A DNA stretch of 64,000 bases, from assembly GCA_964016885.1 (NCBI GenBank), contig OZ024743.1, forward strand, positions 54,684,001 to 54,748,000. Reading direction: 5' to 3'. The position numbers were made by a program, and so were the translations under genes. This document shows positions 38,583-54,388 of the stretch, in pieces (positions within the stretch are counted from its first letter, which is position 1; every line of letters begins with the position of its first letter). The notes beneath the pieces are model-generated. The model did no database searches. It had not been told where the DNA came from and was given only the letters and a program-made list of their open reading frames with translations. This stretch comes from Eledone cirrhosa (lineage: Eukaryota).

Positions 38583-39218
<636 letters not shown>

Positions 39219-39290
39219 AAGCAGATGGACCATAACGCACCAGAGTACTCAATACTTAGGGTAGTAGAGCGGGAAATAGGGAAATGTATG

Positions 39291-39386
39291 ACCCCGACGG
39301 CAGAGCTCAAGCCGTTTCGGCGGCTATTTCTGGACTAAATTAGAATTTTTAGCCTGGTAAGAAAATAGCCGAACTTTTCAAGGGGT
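39291..39386 (-). ncRNA. Type I hammerhead, U3:A8 core variant, full helix III
   Basis: acccc-TTGAAAA-gtt cggctattt..aaatagccg cc-GAAA-cggc ttgagctct gccgTC^-ggggt. Confidence 0.75.
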
Positions 39387-40171
39387 AATTCCTTATATGG
39401 GAAGATTGTAGTTGTCAAAAGGATTGCTCAAAATTTCTTGTAAACACAATTAAGTCTATCATGGCAGTGGGTGGGAGGTCGGGGTGGCAGAACTTGCCTG
39501 TAGATCAATGAGGGAGTTGGTGCAGCCGGTCAAGCGTAGAAAGTGAAATCTATACAGCAAATTCTAAGGATTGTGTATGAAACTATGCCAGAGGAAGTAG
39601 GCGAAAAAGGATTCTAAAGAAAATAGAGAAGGGACGTTATAGAATAGGTAAATCAATTGAGATTTGGAGACAATAAATAAATAAGAGAAAAATATATAAA
39701 AATATAAAATTGGATAGTAAGAAGTGATAAAAATAACTGTAGAGTCTAAAACAGCTGCTATATATAGTTGGTGTTGCGTTTTTGGCCAATGCTATAGAAT
39801 AGGTTAATAAGTTGAGAATAGAAGATACAAAATAAATAAAAAATTTTGACATTATAAAATTGGGAAGTAAAAAGTAATACAAATTCTCTGGGATCTAAAC
39901 CAGCTGTTATAGTGAGTTTGTATTGCGTTTTCGGCCAATGCTATCTTTAATTTACTGGGGTGGGGGTACTGAGGCTACAATGGCCCGGTGGGCTGCCTCC
40001 GGGTAGGCGAAAGGGGAAAAAGAAAGAGGAAGAAGATAGGGATTGAAAAGAAGTGATAGGAGGAAACAAAGGGAAGAAGAAAACAGAAAGGAAAAGAAAA
40101 GATGTGCATCTACCTATGTAAGCAGGGGTTTCCCCTATCTTATTCGGCAAGTGGGATGTTGCAGCCATTGT

Positions 40172-42140
40172 CTACCCACCCGGGTCATTGGGGGGTTTGA
40201 GGGCGATGCAAGTCCTACGCAATTGGTGTTTGCATGCAGTTAACAGTTCGTCTTTTTTGTTTAGGAATTGGTCCTTCGTAAACAGCATTTGTAATGTTTC
40301 TTCCGAGCATAAGTTACACGGACGGCGTCCTCCCGTGTAGGTGTTAGCCCTGGACAGTGAGCTCCAAGTAAGATTGTATGTTATGTTATTATCTTGGAGG
40401 TCCTAGATGTGGCCCGAAAGTGTAGTGGCATGTCGCCGGGCCGGGTTTCGGAACGAAAGTCGGTGTTGGTAGAGCTGGGTCTTAAAGTCACAAGCCGTTA
40501 ATCCTATATAAGCTTTGTTGGAGGTGTCCGTCCTCATGTTGCACTGGTAGATCACGTTACATTCCCGGCATCTGTTGTTGAGGGGGCACGTAGATCTATC
40601 AGGGCAGTTACACCTCCTGGTCGGCTCTCCACTAATGTCTAGGTTGTTTCTTCCATAGGGGTTGAGTTTTTTGTTGTTTGAGGAGGTGATGTTTTGTGCG
40701 AAGTTGAGTGTGGCGCTGTAAGAGAATTTGATAGTGTTTTTGTTGATTATGTTGTGGTAGCGGTGTTGTGGTGGGAAGTGTTTTTCGAGGAGCCTAAAGA
40801 AGATTTTCCCGATAGGGGTTGCCACCTCGGCATTGTCGGGAGGGTTGAACCACGTTACGTTGCGTGAGCGGCGGTGTCGCCTGCTGGTTCCGCTAAGGGA
40901 AGCTGGATAAAAGGATATTTCCTCCCGGAAGCCTTTCCGCTTGAGGGCCTGGTTGTAATGAGGCGCGTGTTCGTCGAATATCTGCTCATTAGCGGACAGA
41001 CGAGATATGTGGAGGGAGATGTTTTTGACCAGGGTATTGGTGATGTTTCTAGGATGGTTAGAGCGGCGGTGGATGTAGTGCAGGTTGTCGTTTAGTTTCC
41101 TGTATGGGTAGTACAGATCATTTTCGAGGTTAATGGTAACGTCCAGGAAATTGACTCGGGTTAGGGACGTTTGTAGGGTGATTTAAATCCCAGAAGAAGT
41201 TGATTAGTTGTTTAGGGACCCGGTCTGTACTACTGGGGTTGTATCCTTTGAGGGTAAGGAGCCCTTCGTCTCGGTACAATCCACCGTCGAATGCAGGAAA
41301 TATTTCAGTGAGTTTAAATAGTAGGAATAATCCTATAAGATCGGTCACCTCGGCCGAATCGGTCTCGCCCATACTGACGTCGAAAGGGATGTAGGGAGCT
41401 CTCTTTATCCACTTGGAGTTGTCGAAAAGTACGACTGTCTTCCTGGCGCGAAGAATGATATTACTTTCCTGGTCGGTGATGGGTGTGAGTGTTTTAGCAA
41501 AGTCCAAAGCGGCCGTAAGGAACGGTAAGGTAATAGATGCATAGTAACTCTCTATGTCAAACTGGATGAATTTGGTGTCCCATTTGTCCTCATTATTCCT
41601 GAACTATGAGATTACTTCCAGGGTGCTGACCCATAGGCTAAGTCTCGCGTTTTGCTTAACTTTTGGTATAACGCGGTCTAGGATCTTTTTACTGATTCTC
41701 CCTATGTCTGACTTCGTCGGGTTTATAAGCCTGATGGATGGTTTGCCGTCGAATTCGGATTTGTGGTCCTTCAGTGTGAAGTAGGAAGTCGAGGGATTCA
41801 GTGCGGTCGGCGACCCCGAGGCAGGAGGCAATTTGTTGTCCATCTAGATTTATGTCCTCGATAATTGAATGGTTAGCCTTTTTGTAGGTGGAGTTCAGGC
41901 TGCTCCTGATCAGTGTGTGGCATCTGTCAGGGTTGACGAAATAGAGGTTTCCAGTTTTGTCCGAGTGCACCAGAATAACGTTGGTGCTTTCATACTCCGT
42001 TATTTTGCTACGAAGTTGTTGTAGGAATCTGTTGTGTCTGGGTTTGAATTGTATAGCCTTGGCCGGGTGGAAGAGGTCGTTCTCGAAGGGTAAGAGCATA
42101 GGGTTCGGTGGAGGAGATTTGTAGGTATTGAATCCGAATC
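40172..42140 (-). pseudogene. Disrupted PLE polyprotein (reverse transcriptase + GIY-YIG endonuclease)
   Basis: 'SDKTGNLY', 'TLKDHKSEF..RLINPTKSDIGRISK', 'FDVSMGETDSAEVTDLIG..GLYRDEG' (YRDD>YRDE), 'WFNPP', 'CNC..CPL..C..NVIY..YIGLT', 'CNLC..LNKKDELL..CKH'; frameshifts and stops. Confidence 0.9.
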
Positions 42141-43177
42141 TCTCTTTTCTTTTCCTATCTGTTTTCTTCTTCCTTTTGTCTCCTCCTATCACTTCCTTCC
42201 ACTCCCTATATTCTTCCTCTTTCTTTTTCCCCTTTCGCCTACCCGGAGGCAGCCCACCGGGCCTTTGTAGCCTCAGTACCCCCACCCCATTAAATTAAAG
42301 ATAGTTAAAAGACGAACTGTTAACTGCATGCAAACACCAATTGCGTATGACTTACATCGCCCTCAAACCCCCCAATGACCCGGGTGGGTAGACAATGGCT
42401 GCAACATCCCACTTGCCGAATAAGATAGGGGAAACCCCTGCTTACATAGGTAGATGCACATCTTTTCTTTTCCTTTCTGTTTTCTTCTTCCCTTTGTTTC
42501 CTCCTATCACTTCTTTTCAATCCCTATCTTCTTCCTCTTTCTTTTTCCCCTTTCGCCTACCCGGAGGCAGCCCATCGGGCCTTTGTAGCCTCAGTACCCC
42601 CACCACAGTAAATTAAAGATAGCATTGGCCGAAAACGCAATACAAACTCACTATAGCAGCTGGTTTAGATCCCAGAGAATTTGTATTACTTTTTACTACC
42701 CAATTTTATAATTTCACAATTTTTTATTTATTTAGTATCTTCTATTCTCAACTTATTAACCTATTCTATAGCATTGGCCGAAAACGCAACACCAACTATA
42801 TATAGCCGCTGTTTTAGACTCTACAGTTTTTTTTTATCACTACTTACTATCCAATTTTATATTTTTATATATTTTTCTCTTATTTATTTATTATCTTCTA
42901 ATCTCAATTGATTTACCTATTCTATAACGTCCCTCCTCTATTTTCTCTAGAATCCTTTTTCGCCTACTTCCTCTGGCCTAGTTTCATACACAATCCTTAG
43001 AATTTGCTGTATAGATTTCACTTTCTACGCTTGACCGGCTCCACTTACTCCCTCATTGTTCTACAGGCAAGTTCTGCCACCCCGACCTCCCACCCACTGC
43101 CATGATAGACTTAATTGTGTTTACAAGAAATTTTGACCAATCCTTTTGACAACTACCATCTTCCCATATAAGGAATT

Positions 43178-43273
43178 ACCCTTTGAAAAGTTCGGCTATT
43201 TATTTACCAGGCTAAACATTCTAATTTAGTCCAGAAATAGCCGTCGAAACGGCTTGAGCTCTGCCGTCGGGGT
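43178..43273 (+). ncRNA. Type I hammerhead, U3:A8 core variant (inverted-arm copy)
   Basis: accct-TTGAAAA-gttcggctattt..aaatagccgtc-GAAA-cggc..gccgTC^-ggggt. Confidence 0.75.
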
Positions 43274-43562
43274 CATACATTTTCATATATATATATATTT
43301 ATATATATCAGATATTGAGTTAGAAACTCAAAATAGTCTCTTACAATTAAATACCTCCAAGAAAGAAGTTTTTCTGAGCCGTGTAATATAATTGAATATA
43401 CAAGAGTGATAAACACAAATATAAATATACATGTGTTCGAATTGTAAAGGACCAAGTTCACTAGGGTGAACAAAATACTAACTATAACAATATGGTTTGC
43501 CAGACTCAATTTAAAGTAATAAATAAAGAAAAAGAAGAACAAACCTATATTGGGAAAGCCTG

Positions 43563-54148: not shown

Positions 54149-54194
<46 letters not shown>

Positions 54195-54196
<2 letters not shown>

Positions 54197-54388
54197 CGAA
54201 GGAAGTGTGGTAAGGAACCAGATAGACCATAACGCACCAGAGTACTCAATACTTAGGTATTAGAGTGGGTAATAGGAAAATGTTTAACTCCGACGGCAGA
54301 GCTCAAGCCGTTTCGACAGGTATTTCTGGAGTCCAGAAATAGCCGTCGAAACGGCTTGCGCTCTGCCGTCGGGGTAAAACATTTTCCC
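54195..54388 (-). mobile_element. Very short Naiad-family insertion (tail plus fold-back of the HHR 3' half)
   Basis: Matches 39216-39335; arms 54275-54330 and 54332-54387 are near reverse complements; (TA)n flanks. Confidence 0.8.

What the first reader, a model, noticed from the sequence alone, without database searches (positions are those of the whole stretch)
39291..43273. Naiad PLE carries a U3:A8 compensatory-core hammerhead (UUGAAAA)
Seen: both terminal copies have complete helices I-III and a GUC site, but the core is TTGAAAA rather than CTGANGA. Known: C3 and G8 form a tertiary Watson-Crick pair in the active hammerhead, and U3:A8 is a rare natural covariation that retains some activity. 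Inference: this is a maintained variant rather than decay, and standard CUGANGA searches would miss it.
Basis: partly seen in the sequence, partly recalled or inferred. Interest (0 to 1): 0.75.

Follow-up and report, generated by a model that had tools for sequence, protein, structure and literature searches.

The report
Hydra retroelement hammerhead, drifting core pair
Both motifs are hammerhead-shaped RNA sequences at the ends of a broken Penelope-like jumping gene, likely slow self-cutters; their U-A core pair is already published, but this family appears to have passed stepwise through four versions of that pair, one of them mismatched, and many copies begin at the predicted cut site, which likely records cutting in the animal.

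Summary
In detail: two type I hammerhead motifs with UUGAAAA cores and GUC sites. The label is wrong: RT precedes the endonuclease, with DKT, CxCx5C, CxxC and CxH motifs, so this is a Hydra-clade element, not a Naiad. U3:A8 is a family trait: 3,136 of 3,842 core-free matches; CUGANGA was 7 of 1,566. U3:A8 in Penelope-like elements is published (PMC4209133). "Maintained compensation" holds only in part. Sixteen subfamilies form a ladder C:G, U·G, U:A, C·A, U:A, while ten other core sites never change. One very large subfamily reads CUGAGAA (14 of 16 copies). Copy 5' ends peak at the predicted cut site (about 520, against 70-145 at four neighbours, hand-corrected), also in the C·A subfamily; the peak is weaker in this copy's own subfamily. 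Over 95% of sampled ends read through the site. Best reading: a slow, partly cutting ribozyme; cleavage was not assayed. The scan found this family before on other DNA of this genome.

The parts
39291..39386 (-). Type I hammerhead motif at the 3' end of the main copy, sense to the ORF; core UUGAAAA at 39381-39375; predicted cut between 39296 and 39295
43178..43273 (+). Same motif in the inverted 3' arm; U3 43183, N7 43187, A8 43188, G10.1 43190, C11.1 43245, G12 43246, C17 43268; predicted cut 43268/43269
43223..43234 (+). Stretch of loop II (35-46 nt upstream of the cut) at which most family copies have their 5' end; likely the transcription start (inferred)
   Evidence: 79 of 93 ends at risk stop here; depth step in three DNA runs of one sample
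39214..39275 (-). Shortened 3' tail, present on the main copy only, joined to (TA)n
   Evidence: a 32-nt tail pattern has 24,960 exact genome matches
39276..40256 (-). 3' arm of the main copy: end of the endonuclease, 3' UTR, hammerhead
42307..43288 (+). Inverted, 5'-truncated second copy of the 3' arm without tail; ends about 17 nt past the cut site in (TA)n
42143..42304 (+). Extra duplicated piece of the 3' arm at the inversion junction (repeat of 42461-42622)
40172..42138 (-). Broken RT-endonuclease ORF: first 57 codons missing, three reading frames, several stops; 81-85% identical to the intact 719-aa protein of the youngest subfamily
41947..41967 (-). DKT motif (Hydra clade; Naiads have DKA)
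40586..40612 (-). CxCx5C linker motif of the Hydra clade
40226..40555 (-). C-terminal GIY-YIG-type endonuclease (VIY...YIG, no cysteine pair between them) with CxxC and CxH motifs
   Evidence: assigned by motif, Pfam gave no match

Best explanation
The two motifs are copies of the type I hammerhead carried at the end of a Hydra-clade Penelope-like retroelement, and it is likely a slow ribozyme that cuts only part of its RNA, with a 3-8 core pair that likely tolerates any pyrimidine-purine combination. Shown from sequence: the element's class; U3:A8 as the subfamily state; an unchanged remainder of the core and helix I across 16 subfamilies; seamless 3,542-bp head-to-tail units; copy 3' ends about 18 and 100 nt past the cut site; 5' ends concentrated in loop II with a smaller peak at the cut site. 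Inferred: most transcripts start inside loop II and so lack a complete upstream hammerhead. Read-through transcripts from tandem copies or host promoters would carry a whole hammerhead, and cutting would give them a defined 5' end 190 nt before the start codon. The downstream hammerhead must be uncut, or re-joined, when reverse transcription passes it, which would favour a slow enzyme and let the 3-8 pair drift C:G, U·G, U:A, C·A, U:A by single transitions. The copy in this window is dead as a protein gene.
For: Core-free pattern: 3,842 matches, 3,136 of them U3:A8; CUGANGA 7 of 1,566. On a tree of 16 subfamily majority sequences built without positions 3, 7 and 8: 0 changes at 10 other core sites and 0 at 10 helix I sites, against 61 at 39 loop II sites and 54 at 41 flanking sites; the free position N7 changes 6 times (crude Poisson P about 6e-7 for the 10 core sites). 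Helix II shows three pairs changed on both sides; 90% of 726 cells pair, against 26-52% when partners are slid. Cut-site peak in the youngest group: 727 matches, 72 of the first 100 true junctions (about 520), against about 84 (+1), 145 (+2), 116 (-1) and 70 (-2) (hand-counted), including head-to-head pairs whose two arms both start at the cut with one extra base between. 125 of 130 sampled ends read through the site. In the Anolis Poseidon element, hammerhead mutants do not block insertion in vitro, uncut RNA is the main template and reverse transcription starts at two internal sites (PMC11167929).
Against: No cleavage assay and no RNA data. In a complete double-mutant scan of a type III hammerhead only the G3:C8 swap rescued activity and all other changes in that motif were low (PMC9901934), so U3:A8, and more so C·A, may be very weak. 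In this copy's own subfamily group the peak is weak: 17 of the first 100 of 667 matches are junctions (about 113) against 29 at -2, and only about 7 of the 17 are free of microhomology (about 47); +1, +2 and -1 were not searched for this group. About 16-20 of the 72 junctions are ambiguous by shared G. The C·A-type tails give fewer cut-site ends (20 of 69 typed junctions against 41 of 99 in the background), but the difference is not significant (Fisher P = 0.11). In Anolis no RNA reads ended at the cut site. The tree rests on about 135 columns, with supports of 52-100; subfamily I1 has 5 copies. Some subfamilies were found with patterns that fix TGA..AG, which could hide subfamilies with other cores.
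Confidence: 0.63

Rival explanations
1. The fold is catalytically vestigial. It is kept as a protein-binding or promoter element, the 3-8 pair drifts because cutting no longer matters, and the cut-site ends come from reverse transcriptase pausing or joining at the GGGG run.
For: A C·A core persisted through subfamilies Y5 and Y6 and a very abundant tail type (470 exact matches; 14 of 16 full copies; that tail type is 39 of 100 rows). Low activity of such mutants in one model ribozyme. Cleavage is dispensable in vitro for a Poseidon element. The peak is weak in this copy's group.
Against: U4, G5, A6 and A9 lie upstream of where most copies begin, yet never change while N7 between them changes 6 times. 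Positions 3 and 8 change only by transitions that keep pyrimidine-purine, and the lineage returned to U:A. A pause at a helix would be expected at the foot of helix I or III, not exactly between C17 and G1.1 (inference). Head-to-head pairs start at that base on both arms.
Confidence: 0.2
2. The ribozyme is efficient in the cell, helped by the element's protein or by pairing of two copies through the palindromic loop III; unit RNAs are cut, closed into circles and reverse-transcribed round the circle.
For: Seamless tail-to-5'UTR junctions at 4 loci, and an array of 5 hammerheads spaced 3,542-3,543 bp. Helix III with its loop gives a dimer of -26.9 kcal/mol against -6.5 per hairpin. The circle model is proposed in PMC4209133; protein-assisted cleavage is shown for Poseidon.
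Against: Most 5' ends fall in loop II (79 of 93), which a circular template would not give unless the enzyme stalls there. Read-through of tandem arrays explains the same junctions. Helix III is stable enough for a monomer, and the majority sequences fold within about 1 kcal/mol of the hammerhead form in 14 of 16 subfamilies.
Confidence: 0.12
3. One reading: a Naiad element that holds U3:A8 as a strictly maintained Watson-Crick compensation.
For: U3:A8 is the majority state and was regained in the youngest subfamilies.
Against: Domain order and motifs are Hydra, not Naiad. U·G and C·A states were carried by whole subfamilies.
Confidence: 0.05

Closest known systems
U3-A8 minimal hammerheads of Cercyon Penelope-like elements, Schistosoma mansoni (Cervera and De la Pena 2014, PMC4209133; parts 1-2 of 4 read)
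   Same: Type I hammerhead in the terminal repeat of a Penelope-like element; U3-A8 core; long helix II; G10.1-C11.1; palindromic loop III; over a thousand copies.
   Different: Here helix III is a full 5-bp stem with a 9-nt loop, loop II is about 40 nt, and the lineage also passed through U·G and C·A. The parts read report no such series. Its supplements were not read and could hold further core variants.
Hydra clade of C-terminal-endonuclease Penelope-like elements (Craig et al. 2021, PMC8557442; abstract, introduction, section 11, passages, supplement parts 1-2 and excerpts)
   Same: RT then endonuclease; DKT; CxCx5C; CxxC and CxH; no CCHH; RWK-type N-terminus; (TA)n targets; hammerhead near the 3' end; inverted truncated copy.
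   Different: All 26 Hydra hammerhead rows of File S2 (25 families, found with a canonical descriptor) have CUGANGA and short helix III and loop II. The unit here is 3.5 kb, against generally under 3 kb.
Natural U3-A8 hammerheads from genomes and metagenomes (Perreault et al. 2011, PMC3088659; passages)
   Same: Same covariation, described there as the first natural cases and as active in vitro in earlier work.
   Different: Scattered examples, not a dated series within one mobile-element lineage.
Poseidon element of Anolis carolinensis (Frangieh et al. 2024, PMC11167929; parts 1-2 of 4 and passages)
   Same: Two internal reverse-transcription starts that define the optional tail; hammerhead just upstream; AT-rich targets.
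   Different: Other clade; canonical C3:G8; single 3 or 8 mutants abolish its cleavage; no cut-site ends were found in its RNA reads.

Membership tests
Naiad PLE | GIY-YIG endonuclease N-terminal to RT | tested here: not met
   Order is RT then endonuclease in the window and in an intact unit
Naiad PLE | DKA in place of DKG | tested here: not met
   DKT at 41947-41967 (definition)
Naiad PLE | CCHH endonuclease with two cysteines between GIY and YIG | tested here: not met
   One cysteine only between VIY and YIG (definition)
Hydra PLE | Single ORF with C-terminal GIY-YIG endonuclease | tested here: met
   719-aa ORF in a tandem unit; domains assigned by motif and by eye against the published Hydra proteins; Pfam and PDB gave no match
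Hydra PLE | DKT motif | tested here: met
Hydra PLE | CxCx5C linker; CxxC and CxH around conserved E and N; no CCHH | tested here: met
Hydra PLE | N-terminal RWK motif | tested here: met
   RWR in intact relatives; this part is lost from the window copy
Hydra PLE | Insertion into (TA)n | tested here: met
   36 of 43 tail ends scored as running into TA; 4 of the other 7 continue into the next unit
Hydra PLE | RT phylogeny inside the Hydra clade | not tested
   No tree with named reference elements was built
Type I hammerhead ribozyme | Three helices around the core with an open helix I | tested here: met
   helix II opens with one pair and a 2x1 loop
Type I hammerhead ribozyme | U4 G5 A6 A9 G12 A13 A14, A15.1-U16.1, H17 | tested here: met
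   Present in both copies; 0 changes across 16 subfamilies
Type I hammerhead ribozyme | Watson-Crick pair between positions 3 and 8 | tested here: met
   U:A in both window copies; not met in sister subfamilies with U·G or C·A
Type I hammerhead ribozyme | Tertiary contact between helix I and loop II | not tested
   No consistent distal helix I or loop contact was seen by eye in alignment A1; no formal test
Type I hammerhead ribozyme | Site-specific self-cleavage after H17 | not testable with these tools
   Only the indirect peak of copy 5' ends at the site

The most novel reading that the evidence does not exclude
All four pyrimidine-purine versions of the 3-8 pair, including the mismatched CUGAGAA core, cut in the living animal, and the genome records it: one retroelement lineage walked C:G, U·G, U:A, C·A, U:A in single steps and left copies that start at the cut. 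CUGAGAA would work either as a C·A wobble or by a slipped register in which C3 pairs with G7, N7 is lost and an extra A sits before G10.1.
Probability: 0.4. Interest if true: 0.65.

Novelty: new variant of a known kind. Interest (0 to 1): 0.45.

Why it matters
What hammerheads do for Penelope-like elements is an open question: they are nearly universal, yet cleavage was dispensable in vitro and no cut RNA ends were found in Anolis (PMC11167929). This family offers a natural, ordered set of core variants in one sequence background, with copy numbers and a genomic read-out of cutting for each, so the link between cleavage rate and retrotransposition becomes testable with five or six short RNAs. 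If CUGAGAA cuts, the working core consensus is looser than the descriptors assume and hammerhead counts in animal genomes are too low. The U3:A8 swap alone is ordinary.

Tried and rejected
Rfam at E up to 10 missed both copies. Pfam found nothing for the window fragments or an intact relative, and PDB nothing; 858 unnamed homologues at about 40% identity were found, and five looked up gave no useful name. No RNA holder was listed; the three runs laid are contigs of one sample that may be the source, so they are not independent. A copy-level tree using 330 nt upstream could not root the young group, because old and young 3' UTRs align poorly (branch 0.887); I used the subfamily tree on the hammerhead region instead. 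A first clustering merged subfamilies and was replaced by seeded clustering: 18 seeds gave 16 clusters, and loci L061-L067, picked for a canonical core, were left out. Searches for more I1 and oldest-type copies gave only 2 and 4 matches. miss copies with C at 10.2, most of them CUGAGAA, so 82% overstates the U3:A8 share. I considered Neptune or Nematis from the linker cysteines and rejected them on DKT and the missing CCHH. The primary papers with rates for 3-8 mutants (Przybilski and Hammann 2007; Nelson and Uhlenbeck 2008; Scott 2013) and Lunse 2016 on dimeric cleavage were not held; I saw only their citations. Ten paper searches listed nothing whose title or abstract start describes a stepwise 3-8 series, a natural C3·A8 hammerhead or cut-site copy ends; most subscription papers are outside the library.
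Full report
Observation. The sequence holds two type I hammerhead motifs, at 39386-39291 (minus) and 43178-43273 (plus), each with TTGAAAA, GAAA, a GUC site and 5-bp helices I and III. A strict descriptor finds these 2 in the window and none in 200 shuffles. Helix II opens with one G-C pair and a 2x1 loop, then an 8-9-bp stem closing about 40 nt. Rfam lists neither among 41 matches at E up to 10. The copies sit in head-to-head arms that are 96.5% identical: both are the element's 3' end, from one insertion.

The element. The minus strand carries a broken ORF in three frames with RT motifs first and the endonuclease last. It has DKT, a CxCx5C linker, CxxC and CxH, and no CCHH. These are the Hydra-clade marks in Craig et al. 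2021 (section 11; alignment excerpts); Naiads have an N-terminal endonuclease and DKA. Intact relatives start with a stretch like that of the published Hydra proteins and have RWR for RWK (compared by eye). No tree with named references was built. The genome has 3.0 Gb; I did not identify the species. A 32-nt tail pattern has 24,960 exact matches. One locus has five hammerheads spaced 3,542-3,543 bp, units over 99.7% identical, each with a long open frame; one unit gives a 719-aa ORF whose ATG lies 190 nt after the predicted cut, with the two usual copy 3' ends 18 and 100 nt after it.

Is U3:A8 a family trait? Yes. A pattern that leaves the core free has 3,842 matches and 3,136 are U3:A8; of its first 100 rows 87 are U3:A8, 12 are C3·A8, 1 is otherwise changed and none is CUGANGA (hand count). 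A narrower pattern has 1,566 matches, of which 7 are CUGANGA and 470 CUGAGAA. These patterns miss copies with C at 10.2, which are mostly CUGAGAA, so the U3:A8 share is overstated.

History of the pair. I collected 249 distinct full motifs and sorted them into 16 subfamilies without using positions 3, 7 and 8 (loci picked for a canonical core left out). The most diverged, O1 and O2 (median 10.7% and 8.3%), are mostly C3:G8 (8 of 17, 8 of 13). O3 and O4 are U3·G8 (10 of 14, 5 of 5). O5-O8 are U3:A8 (3 of 5, 25 of 29, 10 of 11, 4 of 4). I1 is U3·G8 (3 of 5). Y1-Y3, which include this window's copies (Y2), are U3:A8 (8 of 8, 21 of 22, 55 of 57). Y5 and Y6 are C3·A8 (16 of 21, 11 of 13). The youngest, Y7 and Y8 (0.8%), are U3:A8 (15 of 15, 10 of 10). 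The tree of the majority sequences is a ladder in this order, supports 52-100, rooted on O1; all 26 published Hydra rows have CUGANGA, which agrees with that root. A core-free pattern for old copies gave the same mixture in 25 matches. Every step is a single transition. On this tree position 3 changes 3 times, position 8 twice and N7 six times; ten other core sites and ten helix I sites never change, against 61 changes at 39 loop II sites and 54 at 41 flanking sites. On 33 real copies, 90.1% of 726 cells pair, three helix II pairs change on both sides, and slid controls pair 26-52% (related copies, so the shuffle counts are not probabilities, and two of the five measures did not exceed the shuffles). 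Limits: short alignment, samples biased towards well-kept copies, some subfamilies found with patterns that fix part of the core, recombination untested.

The C·A phase was large. The tail type CCTACTCG makes up 39 of the first 100 rows of a 21,345-match pattern. Of 144 distinct ends of this type, 16 reach the 5' half of the core: 14 read CUGAGAA (11 by the script's pattern, 3 by eye) and 2 UUGAGAA.

Trace of cutting. I used patterns that forbid the three consensus letters upstream of each position, for the Y6-Y8 group. At the cut: 727 matches, 72 of the first 100 true junctions and 28 small indels, so about 520. At +1: 402 matches, 21 of 100 true, about 84. At +2: 154 matches, at most 94 of 100 true, about 145. 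At -1: 77 of 79, and at -2: 47, each scaled by 1.5 for a stricter pattern to about 116 and 70 (hand counts). Seventeen of the -1 rows are perfect palindromes that fit the cut site equally well. About 16-20 of the 72 are ambiguous by shared G. Many of the rest are head-to-head pairs with both arms starting at the cut and one extra base between, or carry short A runs, as expected if reverse transcriptase ran off an RNA end (inference). By tail type the 72 are 49 U:A-type, 20 C·A-type and 3 other, against 58, 41 and 1 in the background; P = 0.11. The U:A minority within the CCTACTCG type would explain about 4 of its 19. In this window's own group the signal is weaker: about 113 (about 47 unambiguous) against 29 at -2.

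Where copies begin. Of 130 ends picked by downstream motifs, 5 stop at the cut or one base before it, and 79 of the 93 that reach loop II stop 35-46 nt upstream of the cut; depth in three contig runs of one sample steps down at the same place. The stronger helices I, II and III are passed, so a transcription start inside loop II is more likely than a stall (inference; the wording was prompted by e1-9529720).

Mechanism. Shown: class, conservation, order of states, end positions. Inferred: transcripts mostly start in loop II; read-through transcripts carry a whole hammerhead that cuts part of the time and gives a 5' end 190 nt before the ATG; the downstream hammerhead must be intact when copied, so slowness is tolerated or favoured. 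This fits Frangieh et al. 2024: uncut RNA is the main template, cleavage needs the protein, and two internal starts define the tail. Against it, Roberts et al. 2023 (passages) found only the G3:C8 swap active in a type III hammerhead, and Frangieh et al. found no reads ending at the cut. That U·G and C·A wobbles have similar shape, and that an extra base between A9 and G10.1 is tolerated, is partly recalled; the extra base is noted for Penelope-type hammerheads.

What is known. U3-A8 in nature: Perreault 2011 (passages). U3-A8 in Penelope-like elements, about 1,300 hits: Cervera and De la Pena 2014. Li et al. 2026 (bioRxiv 10.64898/2026.07.22.740005, parts 1-2 of 5) added only clade background; PMC7151607 and PMC6765202 (passages) added nothing on the 3-8 pair. 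Ten searches listed no paper on the stepwise series, a natural C3·A8 core or cut-site ends; the primary mutagenesis papers, Lunse 2016 and the supplements of Cervera 2014 were not seen. Other notes of this scan describe the same family elsewhere in this genome, with the Hydra label, the mismatch phase and the cut-site ends; I read them after my own tests and do not count them as support.

Verdict. Real motif, wrong clade name, known variant. The added value is the ordered natural series of core pairs with a genomic read-out, which is directly testable. Interest 0.45.

Noticed in passing
window 38925 (+), 37695 (-), 54643 (-): A different short repeat beside the element carries a canonical minimal hammerhead (CUGAUGA or CUGACGA, U-U at 10.1/11.1, almost no helix III), like published Hydra motifs; weak Rfam HH9 match at 38911-38973, E 0.75. 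It also lies in head-to-head arms.
   Followed up: partly
window 35696 (+), 30339 (-), 38405 (-), 59762 (-): Four further canonical-core hammerhead candidates from a loose scan, from at least three other repeats; no chance control was run.
   Followed up: no
window 54190-54375: A short head-to-head copy of the same family, lacking the 5' half of the core.
   Followed up: no
window 39230-39265 (-); L118-L147: The tail holds a small hairpin-like stretch that is nearly unchanged from the oldest to the youngest subfamilies and resembles, by eye, the end of the published Hydra-2_Amil; a candidate signal for where reverse transcription starts.
   Followed up: no
window 43256-43261; L036, L101: Loop III keeps the palindrome GAGCUC in all 16 subfamily majority sequences and extends it to 8 nt in the youngest, so two copies could pair.
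   Followed up: partly
L324-L325 (G000:C1:91472500-91492300): Array with five hammerheads 3,542-3,543 bp apart and long open frames in all four whole units; differences alternate between units.
   Followed up: partly
G000 rows; L069-L097: Many Y3-type copies have five G in the 3' strand of helix I and others five C in the 5' strand; whether both occur together as a longer helix was not checked.
   Followed up: no
L101 and other Y7 copies; O1 and O2: Position 10.2 is A in the oldest and again in the youngest subfamily, giving an A-U pair that the intermediate subfamilies lack.
   Followed up: partly
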